This document shows positions 4,949-61,898 of a stretch of 64,000 nucleotides of DNA, one piece after another. The notes beneath the pieces were generated by a model. It was not told the origin of the DNA. It searched no databases and saw only the letters and a list, made by a program, of their open reading frames with translations. This stretch comes from an uncultured delta proteobacterium (lineage in GTDB: Bacteria; Myxococcota; UBA727; VGSZ01), in assembly GCA_963775425.1 (NCBI GenBank), contig CAVZJB010000006.1, positions 99,898 to 163,897 on the forward strand. Reading direction: 5' to 3'. The position numbers were made by a program, and so were the translations under genes. The stretch's first letter is position 1. Each line of letters begins with the position of its first letter.

Positions 4949-5035
4949 GGGGGCTCCTGGTCCGTAGGGGTGACGCGGCGGTTATCGGCGCCGGTCCCGG
5001 CCCCCGCCATGTCCCACATCCCGTTGGCCGACGCG

Positions 5036-6294: not shown

Positions 6295-6322
6295 CTTTTC
6301 AAGGACCTACGCGACAACGCAA

Positions 6323-6338
6323 AGCGTCAAAAGTGCCT
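6323..6338 (-). promoter_or_regulatory. weak sigma54-like -24/-12 element upstream of the MaoC pair
   Basis: The minus strand reads AGGCACTTTTGACGCT, which has GG-N10-GC spacing. It lies in the only AT-rich spacer of the window, about 30 nt upstream of ATG 6294. The -12 is ACGC rather than TTGC. Confidence 0.2.
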
Positions 6339-6385
6339 GTTCCAGCCTCTAACGTGCATCAGACCTGAGCGAAAAGCAAGAAAGA

Positions 6386-9688: not shown

Positions 9689-9722
9689 GCCGCCCTCCGC
9701 CGTCCGGGGGACACCGGTGCCG

Positions 9723-30057: not shown

Positions 30058-30117
30058 GATCCAAGCGGCGATCCAAGCGGCGATCCAAGCGGCGATCCAA
30101 GCGGCGATCCAGGCGGG
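30058..30117. repeat. 12-bp tandem repeat, 4 perfect copies plus 1 degenerate, in a convergent intergenic spacer
   Basis: GATCCAAGCGGC occurs x4 (30058-30105) and is followed by GATCCAGGCGGG. The array lies between the kinase stop (30042) and the stop of the minus-strand gene (30142). Confidence 0.9.
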
Positions 30118-30141
30118 CGCGAGCCCCCTAAACCGACGGCG

Positions 30142-30585: not shown

Positions 30586-30641
30586 GGAGCTCCTCACGGT
30601 TCGGACGCGCAGGCGCCCGGTTTGATTCAAAGGCGGTCGCC

Positions 30642-43756: not shown

Positions 43757-43778
43757 TCCGGCGCCTCGGCGTCGGGTG

Positions 43779-45655: not shown

Positions 45656-45963
45656 GCGGCGCGATGCGACCCCGAGTCTCCGCGTCAGGTACGTGCACAT
45701 CGCACCTCGAGCGAATCGGCGCTCCCGGCCCCGCTCCCGCAAATTGGCCGGAATGACGACGAGGTGGCGGATCGTGGGCTAACGTCCCCGCGTGACTCGA
45801 GCGGCCGTCCTGCGCGCGCCACGGGGGCGCGCCCCGCGTCCGGGAGCACCTCGGGGAGCGCCCGCCCTTGTCGCGGCGATCGCGCTGATCGCGGCGCTCG
45901 CGTGCGGGTCCGGCGCTCGCCACCGCCGACGGCACGCCCCTCGACGCCGTCGTCACCCAGCAC

Positions 45964-48900
45964 GTGTTCGGCGCCGCCGTCGGCGTCGGCAACACGCTCA
46001 TGGAGTTCAGCCGCGGCGTGAACTTCGCCGTGCGCAGCGATCGCTCCGAGGCCACCATCCCGCTGTCGCGCATGGATCCGGACGCCACCGTGGTGCAGGC
46101 GTTCCTCGTGTGGGCGGGCACGTTCCAGCCGAGCCAGGGCATCCCCCTCGATCGCGACGTCGACTTCACCCTCCCCGACGGCACCTTCTTCAACGACCTC
46201 AGCGTCGACGCGCCCGAGCCGGGGGAGACACCGTCGGCGCTCAACCGCTGCGTGTCGCGCAACCTGAACATCGGCGGGCAGACCCAGCCCATGTTCGAGT
46301 GCCGCCGCGAGGTCACGCAGCTCCTGCAGCGCCTCGGCCCCGGCGGCGCCGTCGGCACCTACGGCGTCGAGGACGTCCAGCTCGAGGCCGGCGACTGCAA
46401 CAACGACCCCGGCCGTTGCGAGGCGGCCTACGGCGGCTGGGCCATCGTCGTCCTGTGGGAGTCGCCGACGGAGTCGGTCAAGCGCGACCTCGTCGTCTAC
46501 GACGGCTTCTTCGCCCTCGACGAGCAGGGCAGCACCTTCGGCGGCTTCTCGTCGGGCATCGGACCCGCCTTCGACATGAACGGCTTCACCATCGGGCCCA
46601 CCGCCGACGGCGAGCTCACGTTCCTCGCCTTCGAGGGCGACGCCGACCTCGGCGTGCCGCCGCAGAACCTCCCGAGCAACCCGGTGCGCTGCAACGACGG
46701 CAAGTGCGAAGACTTCATCCAGATCCGCACCGACGGAAACCCCACGTTCAAGAAGCTCCAGGACGCCGCCAACCGGCCCGGCAACCTGATGAACGGCTCC
46801 GACAACACCGGCGGCGTGCACCCCGGCCTCGACATCGACACCTTCGACATCGGCCCCTCGGGGCTCAACGTGCTCCGCGCCGGCGACACGCACCTGTTCC
46901 TGCAGCCAGGCTCGGGCGATGGCGTCGCCGACGACGGCAGCGGCGGCTCCGGCGAGCTGTTCCTCCTCGGCATGACGTTCCTGTCGGTGGAGACGTTCTC
47001 CCCGCGCTTCCTCAACAACTTCACCGAGAAGGTGGTGCTCGAGCCCGTGGCGGGCGCGGGCGAGACGCTGCACTACCTCTTGCGCGTCGAAAACGACGGC
47101 AGCGCGCCGGCCGAAAACGCCCTCATCCGCGACCAGCTCCCCGCCGGCGTCAGCTACGTCCCCGGCTCCACCTCCAACACCTGCGGCGTCGCCAGCGGCG
47201 ACAGAAACGGCACGAGCCCCGTCCTGCAGGGCACAGGGCTCAACGTCGGCACCATCCCCATCAACGGCCGCTGCGAGGTGCGCTTCAACGTCACCGTCGA
47301 CGCCGACGTCGCCGACGGAACGGTCCTCGACAACTTCTTCACCGTCGCCGCCGACGGCGTCCCGCCCATCCTCATCGGGCCCGCCACCACCGTCATCCAG
47401 GCCGCGTCCATCGGGCAGCCGACGAAGACCGTCAGCGTGCTCGGCGGCGGCGAGCCCTCGCAGGGCTCCACCCTCAACTACACCATCCGCGTGCCCAACA
47501 CGGGCACGCGCAACGCGCCGGGGGTCAGCGTGACCGACGCGCTGCCGCCCGAGCTCGAGAACCTCCAGATCGTGTCGTTCCCCGCGGGCGCCGACAACCG
47601 CTCCAGCGCCACAAACGTCGACATCACCGGCATCACCATCGCGCCGGGCGCGTCGGCGGACGTGGTGTTCACCGCGCGCGTCAAGGCGGGCACGCCCACG
47701 GGCACGCGCATCTCCAACCAGGGCCGCGTGGACCAGCCGTCGCTGTCGACGCCGCTGCGCACCGACAATCCCGCCACGCCGGCGCGCCCCGACCCCACGG
47801 TGATCACCACGGCGTCGGGCGTGTCGCTCACGTCTTCGAGCAAGAGCGCGCGCGACAAAAACGGCGGCCGTTTGCAGCCGGGCGACGTCGTGGAGTTCAC
47901 CGTCCACGTCGCAAAGACGGGGAGCGCCTCCACCGTCATCGACCTCGACGACAGCCTGCCGCTTCACATGGGCGGCTGCGTGGTGGTGTCGTCGCCGCCG
48001 GGCGGCTTCGCCAACTGCACGCCCGGCGGCGCCAACGGCACGGGGCGCGTCGTGGGCGCGGTCGCCGTGGCCGGCGCGGGCGGCGGCGACTTCGTGTTCT
48101 CCGCCGTCGTCGACGCCACGGCGCCCGACGGGTTCTCCTTGGTGAACACGGCGCACCTGACGCCGGAGGCGGACCCGTCGTTCGCCGTCGACGTCAGCTC
48201 GGCGCCGCTGGCCGTGTTTGCGCGGCCCGACTTCACCACGTCGCGCAAGGCCGTCGTCGACGGCAACGGCGGCGACGCGCGGCCCGGAGACGCGCTCACG
48301 TACACGGTGACGGTGGTGAACAACGGGAGCGTCGCGGCGCAAAACGTCGTCGTCACCGACGCCGTGCCCGGGGGGCTCGGGAGCGTGGTCGCGCTCGACG
48401 GCGGAGCGTTCGCGCCGAGCGGCGGCGCGCCGCCGGCGAGCCCGGGCACGGTGACGTGGACCGCGCCGGCGTTGGCGGCGGGCGCCACGGCGACGTTCCG
48501 CTTCACCACGCAGATCCTCGCCGGGACGCCGAACAACACCCGCATCCGCAACACGGCGCTCGTGCACGGCGACGCGCCCGCAGCGGACTTCACCACGCCG
48601 CCCGTCGACGTCGTCGTGCGCGCGTCGCCGGCGCTCGTGGTGACAAAGACGGTGGCGGACCTCGGGCCGCCGCCTTTCCGCCCCGGCGACACGGTGCGCT
48701 ACACGCTCCGCATCCAGAACACCGGCGACGGCGCCGCCAGCAACGTCGTCCTGCGCGACACGCTCGACCCGAGCTTCGAGACGGCCCTCACCAACAACGG
48801 CGGACGCGTCGCCGGCGGGGACGTGGTCTTCGACACCTCCACCGTGGCCGCGCTCTCCCGCCTCGAGCCGCCCGGCGTGGGGGCGCCGGGTGCCGACGTC

Positions 48901-51900
48901 GTGACGCTCACCTTCGACGCGCGCCTCTCTGGCGTGCTCGCGAACGGCACCGTCGTCGCAAACCAGGGCCGCACCACCGCGGATCAGCTCCCGTCGCCGG
49001 TCTTGTCCGACGACCCGGGCACCGCCACGGCGAACGATCCCACGCGCTTCACGGTGACGAGCCAGGCCGTCGTCAGCATGGACAAGACCTTCGTCGACGA
49101 CAACGCCGGCGCGCTGCTCCCCGGGGACACGGTCACCTACACCCTTACGCTGAACGACACGGGGGACGCGCCGGCCGGCGCGGTCGTCGTCACCGACGTC
49201 CTCGACAACCGCCTCACGTTCGTCGCCTCCCCCGACGGCGGCGCCGTGTCCGGCGTCGGCGGCGGCGGCGCGGGCGGGACCGTCACCTTCCCCGCGCGCG
49301 ACGTCGTCCCCGGCGCCGCCGTGCAGCTCCGCTTCACCGTGCGCGTCGCCACCGGGCTCGCCAACGGCACCGTCATCGCCAACCAGGCGCGCGCGGCGTC
49401 GCCGGTGGCGGCCACCACCGTGTCAAACGATCCGAGCACGGTGACGCCGCTCGATCCCACGCGCCTCACGGTCGAGTCGCGCCCCGTCCTCGACGACGTG
49501 CAAAAGACCGTCACCGACCTCGACGGCGACGGGCGCTTCGAGCCCGGCGATCGCGTCCGCTACACGATCACGGTGCCGAACACCGGCAGCGAGGCCGCCG
49601 CCGCCGTCGTCGTCACCGACGTGCTCCCGGCCGCGCTCGAAAACGCCGTCGCCGGCCAGGGCGGCGTGGTCGTGGGGGCGGCGGCGCGGGGAGCGGCGGC
49701 CCCGGCGGCACCGTCACGTGGCCGCTCGGCGCCGTCCCCGTCGGCGTCACGCGCACGCTCACGGTGGACGCGGACATCGTGCGCCCCTTCGGCGACGCCG
49801 TCCCCGTCGACAACCAGGCGCGCGTCACGGGGAGCAACTTCGCCGCCGTTGTCTCGGACGATCCGGCCACGGCCACGCTCGACGATCCCACGCGCTTCCT
49901 CACGTTCTCCAAGCCGCACCTCGTCGTCGAAAAGGCCGTCGCCGACCCGGCGTCCCCCGGCGGGCCCGGCATCGTCGCGCCCGGCGACACGCTCACCTAC
50001 ACCATCACGCTCAGCCAACGACGGCGGCCGCGCCGCCGACGCCGTCACCGTCACCGACCTCGTCGACACCCGCCTCGACACCGTCACGCCCCTCGACGGC
50101 GGCGCGCTCGCGGGCCGGACCATCACGTGGAGCGTCGCCTCCATCGCCACCGACGCCGTCGCCACGCTGCGCTTCACCGCGCTCGTGCACGTGCCGCTGC
50201 CAAACGGCGTGATCATCCCGAACCGCGCGCGCGCGGTGCTCGCCGAGCCGGGCGTCCCCGGTGTGCCCTTCCTCTCCGACGACCCGCGCACCGCCGCCGC
50301 CGGCGACACCACCGACGTGCAGGTGGTGTCCGCCGCCGATCTGTCCGCCACCACGCTCGAGACGCTCGACCCGCTCAGCGGCGCCCCCATCACGTTCGCG
50401 CAGCCCGGGCAGGCGGTGCGCTACCGCCTCGTGGTGCAAAACCGCGGCACCGACGACGGGCGCCGCGTGCGCGCGCGCCTGGTGCTGCCGCCGGAGGTGG
50501 AGCTCGTGTCGGCGCCCGGCGCCACGGTCAACGGCGCCACCCTCGTGTACAACCGCCAGGGCGTCGCGGCGCTCGCGGACGTCGCGCCCGGCGACGTCGT
50601 CACCCTCGACGTCGACGTGCGCCTCAAGGCGCCGCTGTCCGTCACGCAGCCCATCTCGGCGCAGGCCGAGCTGACGGCCGCCGGCGTCGCCAACCCGTTC
50701 CGCTCGGACGATCCGTCCACCGCCGCCTTCGGCGATCCCACGCTGCTCGATGTGCTCAGCCTCGTCGTCACCAAGGACGTGGCGCCGTCCCGCACGGCCG
50801 CGCCCGGCGACGTGCTCACGTGGACGATCACCGCGGCGTCCGGCGGCACCATCGCCGTCGGTCCGAGCACGCTCACGGACGTCGTCTCGCCGGCGCTCAG
50901 CACCGTCACGCCCGGGCCGGGGCTCAGCTTCGACGCGGCGAGCCGCACGCTGTCGGGCGCCCTCGCACCCATCGCGCCAGGGACCTCGCGCACGCTCACG
51001 TTCACCGCGCGCGTCGGCAACACCGCCGCCAACGGCACGCGCATCGAGAACCAGGCCACCGTGCAGAGCGCCGCCCTCGGCGCCGTGCTCTCCGACGACC
51101 CCACCACCGCGGCGGCGCTCGACCCCACCGTGGTGCTCGTCGACGCCACGCCGGTGCTCACCACGTCCACCAAGGTCGCCGCCGACGTCGACGGCGCGCC
51201 GCTCTTGCCCGGCGACACCGTCCGTTACGTCGTCACCGTCGTGAACTCCGGGCGCGGCACCGCGGACGACGTGCGCGTGACCGACGTCCTCGACGCCAAC
51301 CTCTCCGTGCTCGCGGTGGAAAACGGCGGCAACAACGCCGGCAACACCATCTCCTGGGACGCGTCCACCACGCCGGCGCTCGCGGCGGTGGCGCGCGGCG
51401 CCAGCGTGGTGCTCGCTTTCACGGCCAAGGTGAGCCCCGCCGTCGTCGACGGCACGTCCATCCCCAACCAGGCGTCCATCGTGTCACGCGACGTGAGCGG
51501 CGCCGTGCGCACCGACGATCCGTCCACGCCGGCGCCGGGCGATCCCACCGTCGTGCGCGTGACCGCGCCGAAGCTCTCCCTCACCAAGCGCTTTGTCGAC
51601 AACACCCCGCACCCGGGCGGCGGGGTCGACGTGGAGCCCGGCGACGCCGTCGAGTACGACGTCACGGTGCGCAACACGGGCGGGGTGGCCGCCACCGGCG
51701 TCGTGGTCACCGACGTCCTGCCGCCCGGCGTCCTCGTCGACGTCAGCGTGCTCGACGGCGGCAGCGACGACGCCGGCCTCGTGACGTGGACGGTACCCCG
51801 CGTGCCGCCGGGCGGCAGCGCCGTCGTGCGCGTGCGCGCCACCGTGGATCCGCTCGCCACGGGAGGCACCCGCATCGAGAACCGCGCCGAGGCCACCGCC

Positions 51901-54900: not shown

Positions 54901-57900
54901 GGCCTCTTCGACCTCGGCACCATCCGCGGCAAGGTCTTCTGCGACGACGACGGCGACGGCTGGCAGGACGCGGGAGAACAAGGGCTCCCCGGCGTGCGCA
55001 TGGTGGTCGACACCGGGCAGTGGACCGACAGCGACGTCACGGGCAAGGCGCACTTCTCCGCCATCCCGGCGGGCATGCACCTGGTGAAGCTCGACGAGCG
55101 CACGCTGCCGCCGGGGACCGTGCCCGAGAAGGTGCGCGAGACCTTCTACATGTCGCCCGGCCTCCCCGCCGAGATCTCGTTCGGCGCGAAGTGCGTGTTC
55201 TCGTCCGAGGACAAGCCCGAGGTCGTCGTCAACGAGGCCGCCTACGCCCCGGGCGAGGGCGAAGGGCCGGTGAAGCACCACCTCGAAGGCCAGGCGAGCC
55301 CGGCCAAGCTCACCGTCGACGGCGTCGCCGTGGATGTGCAGCGCGCGGACCTGGGCGTCGGCGTCGAGGGCGAAGATCCTGCGTTCGCCGGCGCCGCGGG
55401 CCCGAACCTCCCCGCCGTCGTCGACGGCGGGCTGCGCCCGCGCGTCGAATTCATCCCGCGCGTCGACGGCGGCGCCGCGCCCGTGGCGTGGCAGATCGAG
55501 ATCGAGGCCCTGGGCCTGCCCGCGCCCTCGGGCGCGGAGCCGCCTTCCTCCGGCGTGGGCAGCGCTTCTGCGCCGCGCGCCGTCGAGGTGGATCCGCTCG
55601 CCCAGCCGCGGACGGTGTGGATGTTCGCGGGCCACGGGGCGCCGCCGTCGCACGTGTTCTTCGACGGCAAGGACCCGCAGACGGGATCGGAGGAGCTGTT
55701 CGAGCACCAGCTCTATCGCGCCACGCTCACCGTCGGGTTCGAAGACGGCGCGCGCGCGACGTCGGCGGCGCGCGTGTTCGGCGTGCGCGCGGGCGCGGGC
55801 GCGGACGACGCGCCGGGGCAGACCTTCGAGATCGACTCCGTCGACGGCGAGCTGTTCTCCCGCGCGGGCCGGCCCACGGCCCGCCTGTCGGGTTGGCTCG
55901 GGGGCCACGCCACGGCGCTGCGCGGAAAGAAGGTCACCGTCGTCGTGCACACCGATCAGACCGGCGCGGCGGCGCGCTCGCTGACGGCGCGCCGGGCGGC
56001 GGCGGCAAAGAAGGCGCTCGTCGGCTTCGGCCTCGCCGCCGACGACGTCGCCGTCAAAGGCGCCGGCGACGCGTTCCCCAAGATGCCGAACCTCCGCCGG
56101 CGCGATCGGCTCACCAACCGCCGCGTGGAGATCGTCGTCGACAAGAGCGAGAGCGCGCTGCCGCCGCTGGCGGCGCCTGCCGCCGTTGCGCCGTCGGCGC
56201 GGGTGAACGGCAAGGAGGTCGCCGGCGACGGCGCGTTCGCCGTCGACGTCTCCGTGCCGCGCGGAGACGCGCTCGCGGTGGAGCTCGTGTCGTCGACCGG
56301 GGCGGTGACGCGCGTGGTGAAGAGCGACACGCCGGCGGCGGCGAGCACGGAGACGCCGGCGGCGCCGCTGTCGGTGTCGTTCAATCCGGGGTCGCGCGCC
56401 CTGACGCTCGACGGCGACCCCGTGAGCGCCGCGCTCCTCGGCGTCCGCATCGCGCGCGCGGCGCTGGCCGCCGACGGGAGCGCGGTCATCGAGCCCGCGC
56501 TCCCCCCGAAGCCCGCGGCGGCGGACGGCGCGAACGCCATCGTGGCGTGGACCGTGCGCGTCTTCGTCGAGAAGGACGGCGCGCCGGCGTTCGCCGAGGA
56601 CGACGCCGCTATCGGTCCCGTGGTGCGCGAGCTTTCGGGTGAGGGCAGGCCGCCGGCGAAGATCGCGTGGGACGGCCTCGACGCCGACGGCCAGAAGGTG
56701 CCCGGCGGGCGGCTGCGCGCGCGGCTCATCGTGAAGACCGCGGGCGGCGACACCGGCATCTCGCCCGACGCGCCGCTTTTGGCCGGCGCCGCGGGCGTCG
56801 CGGGGGCGCCGGTGGTCATCGCCGATCCACTCGACGCGCACGGCAAGCTGACGGCGGCGGCCAACAACGCGGTGAAGGCGCTGGCGGCGCAGGCCAAGGA
56901 CGCGGCGGCGGTGAAGATCACCGTGCACAGCGACGACAGCGGCACGCAGCTCAACCGGCGCTTCCGCACGCAAAACGGCGCCACCGCCATGAAGGCGCTC
57001 CTCGTCGCCGCGGGCGTGCCCGCCGCCAAGGTGAGCGCGGTGGGCATGGGCTCGGACAAGCCGTTGGTGCCGAACCTCAGCCGCAAGATGCGCGAGGAGA
57101 ACCGCCGCGCCGAGGTGGTGTTGGTTGCGCCCGCGGCGCCGGCGCCGACGTCGACGTCGACGCCGGTGGCGCCCGCGCTGCGCGCCAACGGCCAGCCGCT
57201 CGCGCAAGACGGCGAGCGCCTCGGCGGGCAGGTGCCGGCGACGCGCAGCGGCGAGACCGTCCTCGACCTCCGCGACGCCGACGGCGCGCGCGCCACGCTC
57301 CACGTCCGCCCGAACGACGCGGGCGAGGTCTGGGAGGGCGACGCCCCCGCGTACGCAGCGTGGGTCGCCATGGCCGCGCCCGTCGAGCTCGCGCCGCCCG
57401 CCGAGGCCGCCGCGGCCCCTGTCGGGGGGGCCGCGAGCGGCACGCCCGTCGAGGGTGCGGGGCGCGCGCGGCCCGTCGCCGGCGCGGCGCCTGTCGACGG
57501 CATCGCGCCGCTCACGCCGGCAAAGCCGAAGAGCGCGGGCCCGCCCACCTGGTACCCGGACGTCCAGAAGCTCGGGGCGCACGACCTCGTCGTCGAGCTC
57601 CCCGCCGACACCAGCGCGCTCCACGCGGACACGCTCCTCGTGCGCGGACGAACCAATCCGCAGAACAAGCTGCGCATCGGCACCGACGAGGTCGCCGTCG
57701 ATCCCGACACCGGGGCCTTTGTTCACGTCGTCAAGCTGCCCGAGGGCGACAGCGACCTCGTCGTCGAGGCCACCGACCCCACCGGCAACGTCGGCCGCAT
57801 CAAGCGCGCGGTCAACGTCGACACCACCGGCTGGTTCGCGCTCCTCCTCGCCGACACGGCGTTCGGCGGCGACGGCGCCGACCTCGGCGAACGCACACCC

Positions 57901-60798
57901 TTCACCTCGGTCAAGCTCGGCGACACGTTCCTCTACGGTCGCGGCGCGGCGTTCGTGCAGGGCCGCTGGCACGGGCCCTGGATGTTCCAGGACTACGCGC
58001 TCACGCTCGACGTCGACACGCGCCGCTGGCAGAGCGACGTCTTCGATCCCGAGCTCATCGATCCCGAGCGCTTCTTCCCCGTCTACGGCGACTCCTCCGT
58101 CGAAAACGTCGACGCCACACGCTCCGCGTTCCCGCTCTACGTCGACCTCAAGGCGGACAGCTCGAGCCTCATCGTCGGCAACGTGCGCACGGACCTCCAG
58201 GCCGGGTCGCTGTTCCGCTACCAGCGCGCGCGCAGCGGCGCCCAGCTCGTGTTCGACCGCGGCTGGACCGCGCCCCTCGAGACGCCGTACGCCAGGGTGA
58301 ACGGGCACGCCGACGGCCCGGCGGCAGCGGCGGACAACAATCCGTGGCGCACCACGGTGACCACGTTCGTGGCCGGCGGCGGCGGACAGCGGCACGCGCG
58401 CGTCGAGCTGCTCGGCACGGGATCGAGCGTGTACTTCCTGCGGCACGAACGCGTGGTCGAGGGCAGCGAGAGCGTCGCCATCATCGTCCGCGACGCCGTC
58501 ACCGGCGCGGAGGTCTCGCGCACGCCGCAGGTGCGCGACGTCGACTACAACATCCGCTACGACGAGGGCCGGGTGATGTTCAAGGAGCCCGTGGGCGCGT
58601 TCGCCGACGACATCTCGGGGCTCACCATCAACCACAACCTCGGGCAGGTGCAAAACGCCGACCGCGTCTTCGTCGAGGTCGAGTACGAGCACCAGGAGGA
58701 CGACCCCTTCATGGGCGTCGGCGCCGGCGCCCAGTTGAAGCAGCGCGTGCTCGGCCACGCCGAGGTCGGCGGCGGCTACGTGTATGAGTCCCGCGAGGGC
58801 GGCGCGCTCGGGTACCAGCTCGGCGGCGGACACGTGAGGCTGTTCGTCGACGACAACACGTGGATCCAGGGCGAGCTGCTCGGGTCGCAGTCGGTGGACG
58901 CCGGCAACTTCGTGTCCCTCGACGGCGGCCTCACCTATTCGTCGCTCGGCCAGAGCCTCGATCAGAAGGACGGGCAGATCGGCCGCCAGATCTTCCCCGC
59001 CGACCGCGCCGGTGTCGCCTTCAAGCTCGAGGGCAACGCGCAGCTCGGCACGACGCTCGGCCGCAAGGACAACGCCGACGCCAACCTCCACGCGTACGTG
59101 CAGCAGTTGCAGCCGGGCTTCTTCGCCGACGCGTCCATCGTCGAGCAGGGGCAGACCAAGTGGGGCACCGAGGCCGCCTGGCGCATCGTCGACGACGGCA
59201 AGCTCAAGCTCCGCTACGACGGCGTGGTGAGCGAGATCCCCGAGGTGCAGCCGCTCACCGAGTTCCGCACGCTGCATCGCGAGATCGCCACGGCGCACTA
59301 CGAGCACCGGGTGCTCGCGCCGCTGACCGTCTTCGGCGAGTACGGCTTCGGCTACACCTACGACAGCGGATCGTTCGGCCGGAGCGCCATCGCGCCGTCG
59401 CACGACTTCGTCACCAACGTCGTCGCGCTCGGCGTCGACTGGCAGCTCCTCGAGCGCGTCGAGCTCGGCTTGAAGCAGGAGCTCGTGCTCACCGGCGATC
59501 CCAACCAGCTCAAGGGGCCGCTCGATCAGCTCGTGAGCCACCTGCTCGTCAAGTACGCGCTCACCGAGGACCTCTCGCTCGTCGGCGGCAGCGACCTGCG
59601 TTGGAGCGGCGAGAACCAGGAGCACCTCGGCGTCTCCTACGCCATCAACAAGGGCGCGCGCGTCTACGCGAGCGAGCGCGTGGGCGTGCTGCCCGCGCCC
59701 GTCACCGGCACCATGGGCTTCAACACCACCACCGTCGTCGGCGGGGAGACCGACGTCGGGCCCGGCTCGCAGGCGTACGCCGAGTACCAGCTCGACGGCG
59801 GCTTCTCCGGCGATCAGAGCCGCGGCGTCGTCGGCTTGAAGACCGCGTACCGCCTGCCGTTCGGCTTCGCGCTCAACTTCGGCTACGAGCGCATCATGCT
59901 GGTCGGCGGCACGGTGCCCACCACCGAGGGCGGCAACGTCCCGCCGGGCGCCTTCACCGACGGCACCTTCTACGCCGCGCCCGGCGCCAACGCGGGCGGC
60001 GCGTTCCTCGCCGGCGAAGGCTCGCGCGACGCGGTGTCGGCGGGGGTCGAGCTCAAGCGCGGCGAGGCCGTCGTCGCCAGCCAGCGCTTCGAGCTGCGCT
60101 ACGACAACCGGACCGAGGCGCGCGGCGGACACGACCGCCTCTGGCTGCTGTCCGGCTCCGGCGGCTCGGTGCGGCTGAGCCCCGAGCTGTCGCTGCTCGG
60201 GCGCTACAACATCGCGCTGGCCCAGGATCTCGCGCTGTCGGAGCGCGAGGCGTACTTCGAGGAGGGCGCGTTCGGCGTCGCTTATCGCCCCGTGACCCAC
60301 GATTGGTTCAGCGTGCTGGCCAAGATCTCCCGGCGCGTCGACGTGCGGCCGCTGTCGCTGGAGGCCGGCACCAGCGACGACTACACGGCGCACGCCATGA
60401 GCGTCGAGCCCATCGTGGAGCTGCCGTGGAAGGTGCAGCTCGTCGAGAAGCTCGCGCTCAAGCACGCGAGCGAGAAGCTCGACGACGTGCCGGAGGCGAA
60501 CGCGCTCACGGGTCTGTGGATAAACCGCGTCAACCTCCACGCGCTCGGGCTCATCAAGTCGCTCGGCGTGAAGCAGCCGCTGCCCGGGGAGATCGACCTC
60601 GGCGTCGAGTACCGCGTGCTCGCCGGCTTCACCTACGGCACGGTGGAGCACGGCCCGCTCGTCGAGGTGCAGGTGGCGCCGGTGGAGTACTTCCGCGTCG
60701 GCGTCGGCTACAACTTCACGAGCTTCTCCGACGACGAGCTCGACTCCGGCAAGCTCGACCGCAGCGGCTTCTTCGTCCGCGCCGTCGGCAGCTTCTAG
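45964..60798 (+). CDS. giant cell-surface/outer-membrane protein: N-terminal domain, >=16 DUF11-type repeats, SdrD-B/Cna-B-like modules, two OmpA-C-like modules, ~990-aa C-terminal putative beta-barrel
   Basis: The ORF is 4,944 codons. PGDT(V/L)xYT(I/L)T(V/L)xNTG...VVVTDVLP repeats recur through about 53400. The OmpA-like blocks end in NRRVEIVV (~56140) and NRRAEVVLV (~57125). The C-terminus is ...YNFTSFSDDELDSGKLDRSGFFVRAVGSF. The probable leader is encoded from GTG 45792 in another frame. An internal out-of-frame stretch runs from about 49675 to 50015. Confidence 0.85.
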   Translation: MFGAAVGVGNTLMEFSRGVNFAVRSDRSEATIPLSRMDPDATVVQAFLVWAGTFQPSQGIPLDRDVDFTLPDGTFFNDLSVDAPEPGETPSALNRCVSRNLNIGGQTQPMFECRREVTQLLQRLGPGGAVGTYGVEDVQLEAGDCNNDPGRCEAAYGGWAIVVLWESPTESVKRDLVVYDGFFALDEQGSTFGGFSSGIGPAFDMNGFTIGPTADGELTFLAFEGDADLGVPPQNLPSNPVRCNDGKCEDFIQIRTDGNPTFKKLQDAANRPGNLMNGSDNTGGVHPGLDIDTFDIGPSGLNVLRAGDTHLFLQPGSGDGVADDGSGGSGELFLLGMTFLSVETFSPRFLNNFTEKVVLEPVAGAGETLHYLLRVENDGSAPAENALIRDQLPAGVSYVPGSTSNTCGVASGDRNGTSPVLQGTGLNVGTIPINGRCEVRFNVTVDADVADGTVLDNFFTVAADGVPPILIGPATTVIQAASIGQPTKTVSVLGGGEPSQGSTLNYTIRVPNTGTRNAPGVSVTDALPPELENLQIVSFPAGADNRSSATNVDITGITIAPGASADVVFTARVKAGTPTGTRISNQGRVDQPSLSTPLRTDNPATPARPDPTVITTASGVSLTSSSKSARDKNGGRLQPGDVVEFTVHVAKTGSASTVIDLDDSLPLHMGGCVVVSSPPGGFANCTPGGANGTGRVVGAVAVAGAGGGDFVFSAVVDATAPDGFSLVNTAHLTPEADPSFAVDVSSAPLAVFARPDFTTSRKAVVDGNGGDARPGDALTYTVTVVNNGSVAAQNVVVTDAVPGGLGSVVALDGGAFAPSGGAPPASPGTVTWTAPALAAGATATFRFTTQILAGTPNNTRIRNTALVHGDAPAADFTTPPVDVVVRASPALVVTKTVADLGPPPFRPGDTVRYTLRIQNTGDGAASNVVLRDTLDPSFETALTNNGGRVAGGDVVFDTSTVAALSRLEPPGVGAPGADVVTLTFDARLSGVLANGTVVANQGRTTADQLPSPVLSDDPGTATANDPTRFTVTSQAVVSMDKTFVDDNAGALLPGDTVTYTLTLNDTGDAPAGAVVVTDVLDNRLTFVASPDGGAVSGVGGGGAGGTVTFPARDVVPGAAVQLRFTVRVATGLANGTVIANQARAASPVAATTVSNDPSTVTPLDPTRLTVESRPVLDDVQKTVTDLDGDGRFEPGDRVRYTITVPNTGSEAAAAVVVTDVLPAALENAVAGQGGVVVGAAARGAAAPAAPSRGRSAPSPSASRARSRWTRTSCAPSATPSPSTTRRASRGATSPPLSRTIRPRPRSTIPRASSRSPSRTSSSKRPSPTRRPPAGPASSRPATRSPTPSRSANDGGRAADAVTVTDLVDTRLDTVTPLDGGALAGRTITWSVASIATDAVATLRFTALVHVPLPNGVIIPNRARAVLAEPGVPGVPFLSDDPRTAAAGDTTDVQVVSAADLSATTLETLDPLSGAPITFAQPGQAVRYRLVVQNRGTDDGRRVRARLVLPPEVELVSAPGATVNGATLVYNRQGVAALADVAPGDVVTLDVDVRLKAPLSVTQPISAQAELTAAGVANPFRSDDPSTAAFGDPTLLDVLSLVVTKDVAPSRTAAPGDVLTWTITAASGGTIAVGPSTLTDVVSPALSTVTPGPGLSFDAASRTLSGALAPIAPGTSRTLTFTARVGNTAANGTRIENQATVQSAALGAVLSDDPTTAAALDPTVVLVDATPVLTTSTKVAADVDGAPLLPGDTVRYVVTVVNSGRGTADDVRVTDVLDANLSVLAVENGGNNAGNTISWDASTTPALAAVARGASVVLAFTAKVSPAVVDGTSIPNQASIVSRDVSGAVRTDDPSTPAPGDPTVVRVTAPKLSLTKRFVDNTPHPGGGVDVEPGDAVEYDVTVRNTGGVAATGVVVTDVLPPGVLVDVSVLDGGSDDAGLVTWTVPRVPPGGSAVVRVRATVDPLATGGTRIENRAEATANEVGLAVRSDDPDTATPDDATVRVVTASELWHGTVELFDADSGAPIVTPVIPQQRIRGRITFQNDGNQTAQAVVLTVPVQQDRIVVDSTTGGGVVDQAGVRWDASQNPAFVRMSTGQGAQVEFTGRMASPLPDDIDIPVEGLVVTAAVPTPPAVIGPAVLHTRSRPDLSATTKEVIDDDGGLVEPGDLLTYRITVLNDGGVSAPNVHVFDAIPGGMVYVANSTRLRGQPVADPAPSVSPLQAPSSAGQPAGLAVGDLDAGRSAVVEMKVRVSPAAPRGVRIDNQAVLTASGAPDAVSDNPNTPLILGDPTPVIVGGGASLVAEKVGAPSPVVAGDALHFDIHIENVGTEPALGITADDVVPRGTHYLTGSLVVDGVPATDAADRDDADVSGAGLVTVHLHRALLEAGEGVTLGFDVKVDSASVVENQAQVASENAGSLLTDGDPLVPGAQPTVVPVKNARAIVIDPDTVRIIDDRGGVLLPGDTVTVRATVRNQSLEHVVLDGVELGVSALLDVVPEAVTAADPRLRFDAAQRVVRFVDGTSVDIEDGGAFDVTFPATVSGDARTGDTVRALGSAHVHTLDGALEKNANLGRAALTVGLLPGTGAIEGTLFLDGGEHDEVFQPETDARVRGMSVLAFWRDDTEPVQTAIADDQGHFQLLPVPAGRYRLELRSPGGASFGAVGASELQSGEVRERDIAVTATGAVYLSGSQRVPEGARVQLFADDGDADPDNDVLVSDRLLGEGQQGQPVTAQGLYRFDPPPGRYRIAVEPPDPLTSFPSSAVPVAADSAGNPFGAFAALDGAGDVEGVTAPLPVFNPRGAGAGGAVNGGEPYFLRFDVQAGGPPLSRNFIPVDALKSQLTLTKTANHKRASVGDIVSYTVRVDNRALAGVTTADGGVEIIDTLPFGFRLVDGSYRLDRITTDGKGQQRRSQVVVKDHGGTAHVFGPFEMLPSSAYELRYNVVVGPGTTTGPHENRAALRMAAGQVPLSEDALASVQVVADGLFDLGTIRGKVFCDDDGDGWQDAGEQGLPGVRMVVDTGQWTDSDVTGKAHFSAIPAGMHLVKLDERTLPPGTVPEKVRETFYMSPGLPAEISFGAKCVFSSEDKPEVVVNEAAYAPGEGEGPVKHHLEGQASPAKLTVDGVAVDVQRADLGVGVEGEDPAFAGAAGPNLPAVVDGGLRPRVEFIPRVDGGAAPVAWQIEIEALGLPAPSGAEPPSSGVGSASAPRAVEVDPLAQPRTVWMFAGHGAPPSHVFFDGKDPQTGSEELFEHQLYRATLTVGFEDGARATSAARVFGVRAGAGADDAPGQTFEIDSVDGELFSRAGRPTARLSGWLGGHATALRGKKVTVVVHTDQTGAAARSLTARRAAAAKKALVGFGLAADDVAVKGAGDAFPKMPNLRRRDRLTNRRVEIVVDKSESALPPLAAPAAVAPSARVNGKEVAGDGAFAVDVSVPRGDALAVELVSSTGAVTRVVKSDTPAAASTETPAAPLSVSFNPGSRALTLDGDPVSAALLGVRIARAALAADGSAVIEPALPPKPAAADGANAIVAWTVRVFVEKDGAPAFAEDDAAIGPVVRELSGEGRPPAKIAWDGLDADGQKVPGGRLRARLIVKTAGGDTGISPDAPLLAGAAGVAGAPVVIADPLDAHGKLTAAANNAVKALAAQAKDAAAVKITVHSDDSGTQLNRRFRTQNGATAMKALLVAAGVPAAKVSAVGMGSDKPLVPNLSRKMREENRRAEVVLVAPAAPAPTSTSTPVAPALRANGQPLAQDGERLGGQVPATRSGETVLDLRDADGARATLHVRPNDAGEVWEGDAPAYAAWVAMAAPVELAPPAEAAAAPVGGAASGTPVEGAGRARPVAGAAPVDGIAPLTPAKPKSAGPPTWYPDVQKLGAHDLVVELPADTSALHADTLLVRGRTNPQNKLRIGTDEVAVDPDTGAFVHVVKLPEGDSDLVVEATDPTGNVGRIKRAVNVDTTGWFALLLADTAFGGDGADLGERTPFTSVKLGDTFLYGRGAAFVQGRWHGPWMFQDYALTLDVDTRRWQSDVFDPELIDPERFFPVYGDSSVENVDATRSAFPLYVDLKADSSSLIVGNVRTDLQAGSLFRYQRARSGAQLVFDRGWTAPLETPYARVNGHADGPAAAADNNPWRTTVTTFVAGGGGQRHARVELLGTGSSVYFLRHERVVEGSESVAIIVRDAVTGAEVSRTPQVRDVDYNIRYDEGRVMFKEPVGAFADDISGLTINHNLGQVQNADRVFVEVEYEHQEDDPFMGVGAGAQLKQRVLGHAEVGGGYVYESREGGALGYQLGGGHVRLFVDDNTWIQGELLGSQSVDAGNFVSLDGGLTYSSLGQSLDQKDGQIGRQIFPADRAGVAFKLEGNAQLGTTLGRKDNADANLHAYVQQLQPGFFADASIVEQGQTKWGTEAAWRIVDDGKLKLRYDGVVSEIPEVQPLTEFRTLHREIATAHYEHRVLAPLTVFGEYGFGYTYDSGSFGRSAIAPSHDFVTNVVALGVDWQLLERVELGLKQELVLTGDPNQLKGPLDQLVSHLLVKYALTEDLSLVGGSDLRWSGENQEHLGVSYAINKGARVYASERVGVLPAPVTGTMGFNTTTVVGGETDVGPGSQAYAEYQLDGGFSGDQSRGVVGLKTAYRLPFGFALNFGYERIMLVGGTVPTTEGGNVPPGAFTDGTFYAAPGANAGGAFLAGEGSRDAVSAGVELKRGEAVVASQRFELRYDNRTEARGGHDRLWLLSGSGGSVRLSPELSLLGRYNIALAQDLALSEREAYFEEGAFGVAYRPVTHDWFSVLAKISRRVDVRPLSLEAGTSDDYTAHAMSVEPIVELPWKVQLVEKLALKHASEKLDDVPEANALTGLWINRVNLHALGLIKSLGVKQPLPGEIDLGVEYRVLAGFTYGTVEHGPLVEVQVAPVEYFRVGVGYNFTSFSDDELDSGKLDRSGFFVRAVGSF

Positions 60799-61809
60799 TC
60801 AGCTCGTGAGCACGACCTTGCCGATGTTCTTGCGCTCCTGGATGAAGCGGTGCGCAGCGGCGGCGTCGACGAGCGGGAAGCTCCTGGCGATGATGGGCTT
60901 GATGCGGCCGGCGTCGTAGTCGGCGAGCAGGCCGAGGGCCTCGCGCCGCAGCAGGTCGATGTGGTCCCACAGGTGACCGAGGTTCACGCCGATGACGGCC
61001 TTGTTGTCGTTCATCAGCTTGATGGGGTGAAACCACGGGAGCTTGACGACGGAGAGGAGCGCGCGCACCCGCGACGGCGCCATGCCCGACGACGCCTGCG
61101 ACAGGCCGAAGCAGAACAGCCGGCCGAGCGGCGCCAGGCAGCGGTAGCTCTTCGCGAACGCCCCGGTGGCGTCGAGGACGATGTCGACGCCGCGGCCGTC
61201 GGTGATGCGCTTGACGGCCTCTTCGAAGTCCTCGGTGCGGTAGTCGATGCAGTGCGTGACGCCCATCCCCCTGAGCGTCTCGTGCTTGGACGCCGAGGCC
61301 GTGCCGATGACCTCGGCGCCGGCGATGCGGCACAACTGGATGGCCGCCATGCCGACGCCGCCGGCGGCGGCGTGCACGAGGACGCGCTCGTCGCTCTTCA
61401 CGTTGCCGAGCGTGCGCAGCATCAGCAGCGCCGTCAGGTAGTTCACGGGGATGGCCGCGCCCTCCTCGAAGGACATCGCCGCCGGCATCGGGAAGACCTG
61501 CGCCGCCGGGACGGCCACGGCCTCGGCGTAGCCGCCGAAGCGGGTGAGGGCGAGCACGCGGTCGCCGGCCTTCACGCCGGTGACGCCGTCGCCGGTCTGC
61601 TCGACCACGCCCGCGACCTCGTATCCGACGACGCAGGGAAACGGCGGCGCGTCGGGGTAGACGCCCAGGCGGGCGGAGACGTCGGCGAAGTTGATGCCGC
61701 TCGCCGTCACGCGGACGAGCACCTCGCCGGGCTTCGCCGCAGGGTCCGGTCCCTCCCGGACTTCGAGGACTTCGGGCGGGCCGGCGCGAGGGATCCAGAC
61801 GGAGCGCAT
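60799..61809 (-). CDS. NADPH:quinone oxidoreductase / zinc-independent MDR family (VAT-1-like)
   Basis: It begins MRSVWIPRAGPPEVLEVREGPDP...GEVLVRVTASGINFAD and contains the nucleotide fold VLVHAAAGGVGMAAIQL. The stop codon abuts the giant-gene stop. Confidence 0.88.
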   Translation of the reverse strand: MRSVWIPRAGPPEVLEVREGPDPAAKPGEVLVRVTASGINFADVSARLGVYPDAPPFPCVVGYEVAGVVEQTGDGVTGVKAGDRVLALTRFGGYAEAVAVPAAQVFPMPAAMSFEEGAAIPVNYLTALLMLRTLGNVKSDERVLVHAAAGGVGMAAIQLCRIAGAEVIGTASASKHETLRGMGVTHCIDYRTEDFEEAVKRITDGRGVDIVLDATGAFAKSYRCLAPLGRLFCFGLSQASSGMAPSRVRALLSVVKLPWFHPIKLMNDNKAVIGVNLGHLWDHIDLLRREALGLLADYDAGRIKPIIARSFPLVDAAAAHRFIQERKNIGKVVLTS

Positions 61810-61898
61810 GACGCGGCGGTACCGCCGCTGGCGCGCCCGCGTCAATGCGGAATGCGTCGCGTTCGCGCTATCGTGAACCGGTCTTGGCGGAGGGGCGT

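What the first reader, a model, noticed from the sequence alone, without database searches (positions are those of the whole stretch)
45792..60798. 14.8-kb gene for a giant protein that fuses surface repeats, two OmpA-like peptidoglycan anchors and a very large C-terminal beta-barrel
The translation shows these parts in order:
- A ~340-aa N-terminal domain I cannot assign.
- At least 16-17 DUF11-type repeats (PGDxxxYTxTxxNxG...VTDxLP).
- Three SdrD-B/Cna-B-like modules (for example GTIRGKVFCDDDGDGWQDAGEQGLPGV at ~54915).
- Two OmpA-C-like modules, at ~55925-56140 and ~56900-57125.
- About 990 aa (~57815-60795) of alternating hydrophobic/polar strands ending in ...FFVRAVGSF. A C-terminal aromatic residue is the hallmark of outer-membrane beta-barrels.

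The domain order is topologically odd. With a C-terminal barrel as in a type V autotransporter, the >3,000 upstream residues should be exported. Yet the two peptidoglycan-binding modules sit between passenger and barrel and would be expected to stay periplasmic. The barrel region is also several times larger than known autotransporter barrels. This may be an undescribed envelope-spanning adhesin or anchor architecture.
Basis: partly seen in the sequence, partly recalled or inferred. Interest (0 to 1): 0.8.

Follow-up and report, generated by a model that had tools for sequence, protein, structure and literature searches.

The report
Giant adhesin fused to huge barrel
This roughly 5,000-residue gene joins a long adhesin-like stalk, two cell-wall-binding modules and a predicted outer-membrane barrel of about 40 strands, and it is the fused form of a widespread two-gene system (stalk protein plus giant barrel) that I could not find described anywhere.

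Summary
The giant ORF is real: 45964..60798 (+), 4,944 codons. It encodes a signal peptide cut off by a frameshift. Two compensating frameshifts (~49.68 and ~50.01 kb) also put 113 codons out of frame. These are probably assembly indels.

Confirmed parts:
- an orphan ~360-aa head
- 17 DUF11/CLIPPER modules
- an SdrD_B module
- two canonical OmpA modules
- a ~990-aa C-terminal domain

The C-terminal domain matches no Pfam or NCBIfam family. AlphaFold2 predicts about 40 (38-42) beta-strands. Foldseek matches only outer-membrane barrels, all weakly. The C-terminus carries a family-conserved motif ending in an aromatic residue.

The barrel family has 7,211 clusters. In 9 of 9 stand-alone members examined, a CLIPPER/SdrD_B repeat protein gene lies immediately upstream. 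Where both termini could be read, each protein has its own signal peptide. OmpA modules, when present, sit at the N-terminus of the barrel protein.

So the "odd" domain order is a gene fusion of stalk with OmpA-barrel. Most likely the barrel anchors or exports the stalk and is tied to peptidoglycan. Surface exposure is inferred, not shown. No description was found in the literature.

The parts
45792..45911 (+). Sec-type signal peptide (VTRAAVLRAPRGRAPRPGAPRGAPALVAAIALIAALACGS...), read in frame position mod 3 = 0, which is not the frame of the main ORF
   Evidence: Three-frame translation. The orthologue P0032 has a signal peptide in frame, followed by ...AVALADGTPLSLVTRQSVFGS, matching window ALATADGTPLDAVVTQHVFGA.
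45895..45915 (+). Frame disruption 1: an indel separating the signal peptide from the mature protein
   Evidence: GC3 frame plot and three-frame translation; orthologue alignment.
45922..47040 (+). Orphan N-terminal head domain (~370 aa, Cys-containing) of unknown fold
   Evidence: No Pfam, NCBIfam or PDB hit. One homologue only. The AlphaFold2 model is unusable, pLDDT 34.7.
47041..53682 (+). 16 consecutive DUF11/CLIPPER Ig-like stalk modules
   Evidence: Pfam DUF11 406 bits and TIGR01451 353 bits. Internal HMM. Lys/Asp/Asn motif positions are kept in most repeats.
49678..50010 (+). Segment whose true coding frame is shifted (frame disruptions 2 and 3, compensating). The main-ORF translation here is junk; the other frame encodes part of two CLIPPER repeats
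   Evidence: GC3 switches from mod 0 to mod 2 and back. Pfam DUF11 hit in the other frame. The orthologue L004 aligns on both flanks but not across this stretch.
53767..54480 (+). CarboxypepD_reg/SdrD_B-like module (aa 2602-2660) plus a second, unassigned beta module
   Evidence: Pfam CarboxypepD_reg 31.6 bits against a cut-off of 32.3; SdrD_B E 0.0075.
54496..54897 (+). 17th CLIPPER/DUF11 module
   Evidence: Internal HMM; Pfam DUF11 27.7 bits.
54916..55233 (+). SdrD_B module, the conserved last stalk module before the barrel half
   Evidence: Pfam SdrD_B 36.1 bits. The same module ends the stalk proteins of split systems.
55234..55896 (+). Low-complexity linker plus an Ig-like module preceding OmpA1; candidate membrane-crossing segment
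   Evidence: Direct reading of the sequence. No Pfam hit. The crossing role is inference.
55897..56154 (+). OmpA-like peptidoglycan-binding module 1 (keeps HTD...RRA...NRRVE)
   Evidence: Pfam OmpA 30.8 bits. PDB hits Rv0899, OprF, Pal, E down to 6e-7.
56155..56841 (+). Ala/Pro-rich linkers and an Ig-like module (weak FlgD_ig match) preceding OmpA2
56842..57129 (+). OmpA-like module 2 (HSD...NRRAE; the canonical Arg is Gly here)
   Evidence: Pfam OmpA 34.7 bits. PDB hits OmpA-family, YfiB, Pal, E down to 8e-10.
57130..57582 (+). Ala/Pro-rich (38%) tether between OmpA2 and the barrel unit
   Evidence: Composition.
57583..57822 (+). Ig-like domain (Glucodextran_B-like) conserved at the N-terminus of the barrel unit across the family
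   Evidence: Pfam 31 bits. AlphaFold2 residues 17-93 have pLDDT ~80-87. Covered by the family profile in stand-alone barrels.
57823..60798 (+). Giant C-terminal beta-barrel domain (~990 aa, about 38-42 predicted strands) with an inserted conserved small beta domain (aa ~4129-4209) and the C-terminal motif GFFVRAVGSF, then the stop codon
   Evidence: AlphaFold2 pLDDT 72.7, pTM 0.61. Foldseek matches at E <= 0.001 are nearly all outer-membrane barrels. 7,211 homologous clusters. Conserved terminal motif. OMP_b-brl, BBP2 and DUF481 hits in homologues.

Best explanation
The gene encodes the single-chain (fused) form of a widespread, uncharacterised two-component surface-fibre system.

Component 1 is a Sec-exported fibrillar stalk. 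It consists of an orphan head, 17 CLIPPER/DUF11 modules (most keeping the Lys/Asp/Asn positions used for isopeptide bonds), CarboxypepD_reg-like modules and a terminal SdrD_B module.

Component 2 is a dedicated outer-membrane protein. It has periplasmic OmpA-type peptidoglycan-binding modules on Ala/Pro-rich tethers, an Ig-like domain, and a barrel of about 40 strands presumably inserted by BAM through its conserved C-terminal aromatic motif.

Proposed working:
- The barrel sits in the outer membrane.
- The OmpA modules pin it to the cell wall.
- The chain passes once through the very wide barrel lumen, somewhere between the SdrD_B module and the first OmpA cassette.
- The stalk and head therefore project from the cell surface as a load-bearing adhesin.

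Shown here: the domain content, the predicted barrel, the conserved gene adjacency and fusion, and the signal peptides.

Inferred: outer-membrane location, peptidoglycan binding, surface exposure, lumen threading and adhesive function.

The three frame disruptions are most likely assembly indel errors.
For: Domains.

Barrel:
- The AlphaFold2 model shows ~40 long strands with alternating 2-4-residue turns and longer loops.
- Foldseek matches at E <= 0.001 are nearly all outer-membrane barrels, including LptD, BtuB, MtrB, SprA and SlpA.
- Homologues carry weak OMP_b-brl, BBP2 and DUF481 matches.
- 143 of 179 family members end in F, Y or W within the motif G-x-F-[LVI]-[NR]-x-[VI]-[GA]-K-[FY].

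Coupling of stalk and barrel:
- 9 of 9 stand-alone barrels have a CLIPPER/SdrD_B protein gene immediately upstream on the same strand, from a few bases of overlap to 50 nt apart.
- In the five pairs read in full, both proteins have their own signal peptide.
- 31 of the 150 best representatives are fused giants of up to 6,889 aa.
- The tail domain that ends split stalk proteins lies just before the barrel unit in 11 fused proteins.

OmpA belongs to the barrel half:
- 50 of 181 family proteins have 1-3 OmpA modules.
- In the 1.3-1.7-kaa class these start about 100 residues from the N-terminus (P0025).

Reality of the fusion:
- P0087 (4,991 aa, 46% identity) has the same architecture in an independent assembly.
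- The window ORF has no internal hydrophobic segment.

CLIPPER as an isopeptide stalk domain of Gram-negative fibrillar adhesins, including one with an OmpA-like anchor: PMC12617251.

Indel errors elsewhere in the window: a DnaJ-like gene loses its frame.
Against: - There is no experimental evidence for any family member. Surface exposure of the stalk and passage through the lumen are pure inference.
- I could not inspect model coordinates, so barrel closure and the exact strand number are unverified. pLDDT is only 72.7, from a 30-sequence alignment.
- All Foldseek TM-scores are low (0.1-0.25).
- No energy source or mechanism for moving ~3,300 residues across the outer membrane is evident.
- If the three frameshifts are real, this copy is a pseudogene lacking a signal peptide.
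- The window protein lacks the ~90-aa tail domain found in most other members.
Confidence: 0.55

Rival explanations
1. Envelope-internal tether. The barrel and OmpA modules link the outer membrane to peptidoglycan, as SlpA or OmpA do. The long Ig-like stalk stays in the periplasm as a scaffold and never crosses the outer membrane.
For: The OmpA modules, and in other members the tail domain, adjoin the C-terminal end of the stalk and are periplasmic by necessity. No translocation mechanism is known. Both split proteins are simply Sec-exported.
Against: CLIPPER, SdrD_B and SpaA modules are typical of cell-surface fibrillar adhesin stalks (PMC12617251). Seventeen or more Ig-like modules plus a head would be several times longer than a periplasm is wide (general knowledge). 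Many members have no OmpA module at all (P0014, P0050, P0138). A barrel of about 40 strands is unnecessary for a mere anchor.
Confidence: 0.15
2. Secretion pore rather than anchor. The giant barrel works like a TpsB or usher that exports the stalk protein, which is then released or cleaved off. In the fused form this would be a cleaved autotransporter.
For: The split two-gene form resembles two-partner secretion in gene order: cargo gene, then barrel gene. The very wide lumen could pass folded Ig-like domains. An inserted, conserved small beta domain after the first ~7 strands recalls an usher plug (my comparison from memory).
Against: Repeated fusions, and periplasmic OmpA or tail domains flanking the junction, argue for permanent attachment. 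No POTRA, TPS or usher domains are found. No cleavage motif was identified.
Confidence: 0.15
3. Artefact or pseudogene. The long ORF is produced by open frames in 73% GC DNA or by assembly errors joining separate genes, or the gene is decaying, given its three frameshifts.
For: There are three frame disruptions. The window contains other frame-broken genes. Long spurious ORFs abound on both strands. Split versions exist elsewhere.
Against: GC3 stays at 0.93-0.99 in one frame over 14.8 kb. Every segment has protein-level homologues. Independent assemblies encode the same fused architecture (P0087 at 46% identity and others). No internal signal peptide marks a hidden gene start. The two internal shifts compensate each other exactly, as expected for sequencing indels.
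Confidence: 0.07
4. The C-terminal ~990 aa are a soluble beta-rich repeat domain, not a membrane barrel.
For: There is no Pfam or NCBIfam match. Foldseek TM-scores are low. Barrel closure was not inspected.
Against: The 25 best Foldseek matches include 23 outer-membrane barrels, at probability about 0.9-1.0. The family shares a conserved C-terminal aromatic motif. Homologues carry OMP_b-brl, BBP2 and DUF481 hits. Loops alternate short and long. Stand-alone members have signal peptides.
Confidence: 0.05

Closest known systems
Classical (type Va) autotransporter adhesins
   Same: Signal peptide, N-terminal passenger and C-terminal outer-membrane barrel ending in an aromatic residue. The passenger is presumed to be displayed through or with its own barrel.
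   Different: The barrel has about 40 strands and ~990 aa, against 12 strands and ~280 aa. There is no PF03797 match. The passenger is made of Ig-like isopeptide-type modules rather than a beta-helix. Periplasmic OmpA modules lie between passenger and barrel.
Inverse autotransporters (type Ve: intimin, invasin)
   Same: The same three functional modules: a periplasmic peptidoglycan-binding domain, an outer-membrane barrel, and an Ig-like repeat stalk with a terminal head.
   Different: The order is reversed (LysM, then barrel, then passenger). The barrel has 12 strands (IAT_beta). The peptidoglycan-binding domain is LysM rather than OmpA. There is no sequence relationship.
Two-partner secretion (type Vb, TpsA/TpsB)
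   Same: The split homologues are a cargo gene followed by a dedicated barrel gene, both Sec-dependent. The split and fused forms parallel Vb versus Va.
   Different: There is no POTRA/Omp85 barrel and no TPS domain. The barrel family is unrelated and much larger.
Deinococcus SlpA and OmpM-type outer-membrane-to-wall connectors (PMC9388160)
   Same: A wall-binding domain N-terminal to a very large C-terminal barrel (30 strands in SlpA), joined by a long tether. SlpA gave the best Foldseek query TM-score (0.22-0.23).
   Different: SlpA uses an SLH domain and a coiled coil rather than OmpA modules and Ala/Pro linkers. It is trimeric and has no adhesin stalk. There is no sequence similarity.
Three D. 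radiodurans outer-membrane barrel proteins predicted as 38-stranded with N-terminal Ig-like domains (SI Table S3 of PMC9388160)
   Same: The same gross core: an Ig-like domain followed by a barrel of about 38 strands.
   Different: They are only listed in a supplementary table and are not characterised.
Acinetobacter silvestris CLIPPER fibrillar adhesin B9T28_05395 (PMC12617251)
   Same: [quoted passage not shown]
   Different: It ends with the OmpA-like domain and no C-terminal barrel is described. It is 2,129 aa long.
Plug-and-barrel and threaded complexes (LptD-LptE; RcsF-OmpA/C/F, PMC4942254)
   Same: A polypeptide that has its N-terminal part outside and its C-terminal domain in the periplasm, by passing through the lumen of a barrel. 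This is the topology proposed here for the stalk.
   Different: Those are small lipoproteins in 16-26-strand barrels with unrelated sequences. Threading here is only inferred.
T9SS translocon SprA
   Same: A single-chain giant barrel (36 strands, stated to be the largest known in bioRxiv 10.64898/2026.03.07.710327) whose lumen passes folded cargo.
   Different: There is no TIGR04189 match for the window protein. The cargo signal, partner proteins and phylum differ.

Membership tests
OmpA-like peptidoglycan-binding domain (PF00691) | Profile match above the curated cut-off | tested here: met
   The whole protein scores 49.4 bits against a cut-off of 27.2, in 2 stretches. The modules alone score 30.8 and 34.7 bits. 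PDB OmpA-like domains match at E 6e-7 and 8e-10.
OmpA-like peptidoglycan-binding domain (PF00691) | Conserved Asp and Arg that contact diaminopimelate (their role recalled from the A. baumannii OmpA and Pal structures), plus the NRRxE motif | tested here: inconclusive
   OmpA1 keeps HTD...ARRA...NRRVE. OmpA2 keeps HSD and NRRAE but aligns Gly where the Arg is expected (alignments).
OmpA-like peptidoglycan-binding domain (PF00691) | Actual binding to peptidoglycan in the periplasm | not testable with these tools
   Needs a pull-down or structural experiment.
DUF11/CLIPPER fibrillar-adhesin stalk domain (PF01345) | Tandem profile matches | tested here: met
   Pfam 406 bits in 14 stretches; TIGR01451 353 bits. 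The internal HMM finds 17 modules.
DUF11/CLIPPER fibrillar-adhesin stalk domain (PF01345) | Lys/Asp/Asn triad for an intramolecular isopeptide bond (PMC12617251) | tested here: inconclusive
   Motifs at the expected positions (xK[TV], VTD, xNQA) occur in about 13-14 of 17 repeats. Two repeats lack all three. No structure or mass spectrometry.
Classical autotransporter (type Va) | C-terminal 12-strand Autotransporter barrel (PF03797) | tested here: not met
   No such Pfam hit even at E <= 10 on the C-terminal 1,032 aa. The model has about 40 strands.
Two-partner secretion (type Vb) | POTRA plus Omp85-type barrel in the transporter, and a TPS domain in the cargo | tested here: not met
   No such hits in the window protein, the stand-alone barrels P0019, P0033 and P0035, or the precomputed Pfam lists of the upstream partners.
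Inverse autotransporter (type Ve) | LysM, then IAT_beta barrel, then C-terminal Big_1 passenger | tested here: not met
   None of these Pfam families was found, and the order is the opposite.
Chaperone-usher | Usher barrel (PF00577) with plug, plus a periplasmic chaperone gene | tested here: not met
   No Pfam hit. FimD appears only as a weak Foldseek match, TM 0.14-0.20. No chaperone gene was seen in the neighbourhoods.
SlpA/OmpM outer-membrane-to-peptidoglycan connectors | N-terminal SLH domain and coiled coil before the barrel | tested here: not met
   No SLH hit. The linkers are Ala/Pro-rich, not coiled coil.
T9SS SprA/Sov | Match to TIGR04189 | tested here: not met
   No hit for the window barrel at E <= 1. 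Only noise-level hits (E 0.065-0.09, ~10 bits against a cut-off of 200) for P0019 and P0026.
Unnamed giant-barrel family (this work, profile A1) | C-terminal motif G-x-F-[LVI]-[NR]-x-[VI]-[GA]-x-[FYW] at the very end | tested here: met
   The window ends GFFVRAVGSF. 143 of 179 members end in an aromatic residue.
Unnamed giant-barrel family (this work, profile A1) | Ig-like domain directly N-terminal to the barrel | tested here: met
   Glucodextran_B-like, 31 bits, aa 3874-3953. It is modelled with pLDDT ~80-87 and is also present in P0010, P0013 and P0014.
Unnamed giant-barrel family (this work, profile A1) | Genetic coupling to a CLIPPER/SdrD_B repeat protein (adjacent upstream gene or fusion) | tested here: met
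   Fused in the window. Adjacent in 9 of 9 split loci.
Unnamed giant-barrel family (this work, profile A1) | A closed transmembrane barrel located in the outer membrane | not testable with these tools
   Model coordinates could not be inspected, and there are no experimental data.

The most novel reading that the evidence does not exclude
The giant barrel family is a previously unrecognised outer-membrane export-and-anchoring pathway for isopeptide-stabilised fibrillar adhesins. It exists in a two-gene and a fused single-chain form, analogous to type Vb and Va but built on a non-homologous barrel. That barrel has about 38-42 strands, more than the 36 of SprA, the largest barrel solved so far. 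Its lumen would be wide enough to hold or pass folded Ig-like domains. In many lineages it is bolted to peptidoglycan by OmpA modules.
Probability: 0.4. Interest if true: 0.88.

Novelty: categorically new. Interest (0 to 1): 0.75.

Why it matters
If the inference holds, thousands of bacterial lineages share an undescribed way of putting very long, covalently reinforced fibres on a diderm cell surface. These include Myxococcota, many Alphaproteobacteria and Deferrisoma, going by the names attached to homologues.

It would add a new class to the catalogue of outer-membrane secretion and anchoring machines. It would also provide a single-chain barrel larger than any solved.

It would explain how Gram-negative CLIPPER/SdrD_B "fibrillar adhesins" that lack a known sorting signal are anchored.

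Cultivable carriers of the simple two-gene form (Cereibacter, Pseudovibrio, Chelativorans) make the idea directly testable.

For annotation, it shows that the "TonB-dependent receptor" label on these ~1,150-aa proteins is probably wrong.

Tried and rejected
- AlphaFold2 of the N-terminal head with its single homologue gave pLDDT 34.7. The model was unusable and was not searched.
- PDB sequence or profile searches gave nothing meaningful for the barrel profile (best E 0.08), the head, the ~90-aa tail domain of split partners and the small conserved domain inside the barrel. Pfam likewise found nothing.
- I suspected the tail domain was a degenerate OmpA-like fold. There is no support for this beyond one weak hit in P0087, so I dropped it.
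With the single protein it found only one partial MAG locus, so the source organism was not identified.
- P0006 first looked like a stand-alone close homologue. It is an N-truncated fragment with an out-of-frame end, so I did not use it.
- Eight literature searches found no paper linking these parts. The T11SS hit is probably a word-prefix artefact: "DUF11" also matches longer DUF numbers.
- The upstream RND efflux genes are divergently transcribed and absent from homologous loci. I rejected a type I secretion link.
- A lipoprotein reading of "ALAC" in the signal peptide was not adopted. The lipobox is imperfect and the orthologue has an ALA|D signal-peptidase I site.
Full report
**1. The ORF and its frames**

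The window has 70-76% GC and long open frames on both strands. One ORF, 45964..60798 (+), 4,944 codons, has third-position GC of 0.93-0.99 throughout. It is clearly the coding frame.

In that frame, 45792-45911 encodes a typical signal peptide (VTRAAVLRAPRGRAPRPGAPRGAPALVAAIALIAALACGS). The main frame then continues ...ALATADGTPLDAVVTQHVFGAAVGVGN.

The only homologue of the N-terminal domain, P0032, has a signal peptide followed in frame by ...AVALADGTPLSLVTRQSVFGSSIGVGN. The window therefore carries a frameshift at about 45,895-45,915.

A second anomaly lies between ~49,678 and ~50,010. GC3 moves to another frame and back. The main-frame translation there is Arg/Ser/Pro junk. The other frame reads a normal repeat (GGPGGTVTWPLGAVPVG...PGDTLTYTITLS) and hits DUF11. 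The orthologous locus L004 aligns on both flanks but not across this stretch. Deleting one C in CTCAGCCAACGAC restores YTITLSNDGG.

A DnaJ-like gene at 30745..31713 (-) also falls out of frame. I therefore attribute these disruptions to assembly indels rather than gene decay. A repaired protein has 5,000 residues.

**2. Domain content**

- Pfam and NCBIfam find DUF11 (406 bits, 14 stretches), the related DUF7619, DUF7507 and DUF7927, SdrD_B (aa 2990-3044), a CarboxypepD_reg-like module (aa 2602-2660), OmpA (two stretches) and a Glucodextran_B-like Ig domain (aa 3874-3953).
- An HMM iterated on the repaired protein finds 17 DUF11-type modules: 16 in a row, plus one between the CarboxypepD_reg-like modules and SdrD_B.
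- DUF11 has been renamed CLIPPER. It was shown crystallographically to be a CnaA-like, isopeptide-bonded stalk domain of fibrillar adhesins. One example is a Gram-negative adhesin with an OmpA-like anchor (PMC12617251).
- Motifs at the Lys/Asp/Asn positions are kept in about 13-14 of the 17 repeats.
- Both OmpA modules match solved peptidoglycan-binding domains (Rv0899, YfiB, Pal, OprF) at E 1e-6 to 1e-10. Module 1 keeps HTD...RRA...NRRVE. Module 2 has Gly at the Arg position.
- Each OmpA module is preceded by an Ig-like module. The OmpA modules are connected by Ala/Pro-rich linkers, up to 38% A+P.
- The head (aa 1-360) and the last ~990 aa match no Pfam, NCBIfam or PDB sequence.

**3. The C-terminal domain**

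AlphaFold2 on aa 3860-4944 with 30 homologues gave mean pLDDT 72.7 and pTM 0.61. The model contains:
- an Ig-like domain;
- about 40 long strands (my count is 38-42), joined alternately by 2-4-residue turns and longer loops;
- a small, highly conserved beta domain inserted after the first ~7 strands.

Foldseek against the PDB returned 36 matches at E <= 0.001. Apart from two apolipoprotein B entries, all are outer-membrane barrels, including LptD, BtuB, MtrB, SprA, SlpA, FimD and porins. Probabilities are ~1 for most, but TM-scores are only 0.1-0.25, best for 30-strand SlpA. So it looks like a membrane barrel with no close structural relative.

Distant homologues carry weak OMP_b-brl, BBP2 and DUF481 hits. 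Across 179 family proteins the C-terminus follows G-x-F-[LVI]-[NR]-x-[VI]-[GA]-K-[FY], and 143 end in F, Y or W. The window ends GFFVRAVGSF.

I could not inspect coordinates, so closure and the exact strand number remain unverified. For scale, a 2026 preprint calls the 36-strand SprA the largest known barrel. The SlpA paper lists three D. radiodurans proteins predicted as 38-stranded barrels with N-terminal Ig-like domains. That is the same gross layout, but homology is untested.

**4. The family and its genomic logic**

A profile search of 1.84 billion cluster representatives found 7,211 clusters at E <= 1e-3 and 2,986 at E <= 1e-30. Lengths among 148 family representatives from that search:

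| Length | Number |
|---|---|
| <= 1,300 aa | 82 |
| 1,300-2,000 aa | 35 |
| > 2,000 aa (up to 6,889), barrel always C-terminal | 31 |

Database names are uninformative. Examples are "SdrD B-like domain-containing protein", "uncharacterized repeat protein (TIGR01451 family)", "TonB-dependent receptor" and "hypothetical".

The decisive observation is gene neighbourhood. All nine are immediately preceded on the same strand by a CLIPPER/SdrD_B repeat protein gene. The seven complete ones are 1,390-2,761 aa, and two are cut by a contig end. The genes range from a few bases of overlap to 50 nt apart.

In the five pairs read in full, both proteins have their own Sec signal peptide. P0025 also has one.

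The stalk proteins end ...CLIPPER, SdrD_B, then a conserved ~90-aa tail domain with no Pfam or PDB match. That tail domain lies just before the barrel unit in 11 fused giants.

OmpA modules occur in 50 of 181 family proteins. In the 1.3-1.7-kaa class they start about 100 residues from the N-terminus, straight after the signal peptide. In fused proteins with both, the order is stalk, SdrD_B, tail, OmpA x n, Ig, barrel.

The fused proteins are therefore end-to-end joins of the two gene products. The OmpA modules belong to the periplasmic N-terminus of the barrel protein.

The window protein follows this plan, except that it has [Ig-OmpA] x 2 and no detectable tail domain. P0087 (4,991 aa, 46% identity) shows the same architecture in an independent assembly. 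The window ORF has no internal hydrophobic segment that could be a hidden signal peptide.

**5. Mechanism**

Shown:
- a Sec signal;
- an adhesin-type stalk;
- canonical OmpA modules;
- a predicted giant barrel with a conserved terminal aromatic motif;
- strict genetic coupling of stalk and barrel.

Inferred:
- The barrel is inserted in the outer membrane by BAM.
- The OmpA modules bind peptidoglycan.
- The junction region is periplasmic.
- For the stalk to be outside, the chain must cross the membrane once between SdrD_B and the first OmpA cassette, most simply through the barrel lumen.

That topology is allowed. A classical autotransporter linker also descends through the pore to the periplasmic start of strand 1. 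RcsF-OMP and LptDE are precedents for threaded or plugged barrels.

A lumen of this size could hold the conserved CLIPPER-SdrD_B junction modules as a plug, or pass folded Ig-like domains. This is speculation.

The rivals are a periplasmic scaffold, a secretion pore with release of the stalk, an artefact or pseudogene, and a non-barrel fold. They are weighed in their own section.

**6. Comparison and novelty**

Membership in types Va, Vb and Ve, the chaperone-usher pathway, SlpA-like connectors and SprA was tested through their defining domains and failed for all. The resemblance to them is functional only.

Eight full-text searches found no paper connecting DUF11/SdrD_B proteins with a dedicated barrel. 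The CLIPPER survey does not contain the words "barrel" or "secretion".

I therefore rate the system as a kind not yet described. Two caveats apply: all functional statements are computational, and the library searched is incomplete.

Its "topological oddity" is resolved by the fusion history. Its suggestion of an undescribed envelope-spanning adhesin/anchor is supported and extended to a large family.

Noticed in passing
window 30745..31713 (-), frame change near ~30950: A DnaJ-like gene (J domain plus CxxCxGxG zinc finger) runs into out-of-frame junk in its C-terminal part. The GC3 frame pattern goes 1, 0, 1 over 30091-31651. This points to indel errors in the assembly.
   Followed up: partly
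window 5011..9721: The GC3 coding frame switches many times and there is no long high-GC3 ORF. This may be one or more frame-broken genes.
   Followed up: no
window 40601..44978 (-) and 45006..~45650 (-): A divergently transcribed RND efflux pair (AcrB-like, 681 bits; HlyD-like membrane-fusion protein), plus a small unassigned ORF next to the giant gene. Similar efflux genes were not seen in homologous loci, apart from a truncated membrane-fusion gene about 9 kb away in L009, so they are probably unrelated.
   Followed up: partly
window 60799..61845 (-) and 61845..63575 (+): The downstream genes are a zinc-type alcohol dehydrogenase and an FAD-dependent aromatic-ring monooxygenase. They have no evident link to the giant gene.
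   Followed up: partly
L003-L014 (ends of the stalk genes) and fused proteins P0050, P0051, P0053, P0066, P0067, P0082-P0084, P0102, P0108, P0138: A conserved ~90-aa tail domain (consensus ...FGA...RVVR..LS..AF......P.VLRL.Y.......RL..V......W....L.IE) ends the split stalk proteins. It sits just before the barrel unit in many fused proteins. It has no Pfam or PDB match and is absent from the window protein.
   Followed up: partly
window ~58348..58590 (aa ~4129-4209): The most conserved part of the whole barrel family is a small beta domain inserted after the first ~7 strands (GTGxSxYFL..GSE.V...RD..TG....VDY.I.Y..G). It has no Pfam or PDB hit and could be a plug.
   Followed up: partly
L014 6356..10948: In this locus the barrel gene is also followed by a second 1,530-aa SdrD_B/Beta_helix/DUF11 protein. 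Some systems may therefore have two cargo or stalk proteins.
   Followed up: partly
L002 7342..10218: The barrel homologue P0006 (60% identity) is an N-truncated fragment with an out-of-frame C-terminus, lying between glycosyltransferase genes. It is either a remnant or an assembly problem.
   Followed up: partly
L004 665..8732: The closest orthologue of the head and stalk is itself split by a frameshift in its metagenome assembly: P0032 ends in junk and the next gene continues the protein.
   Followed up: partly
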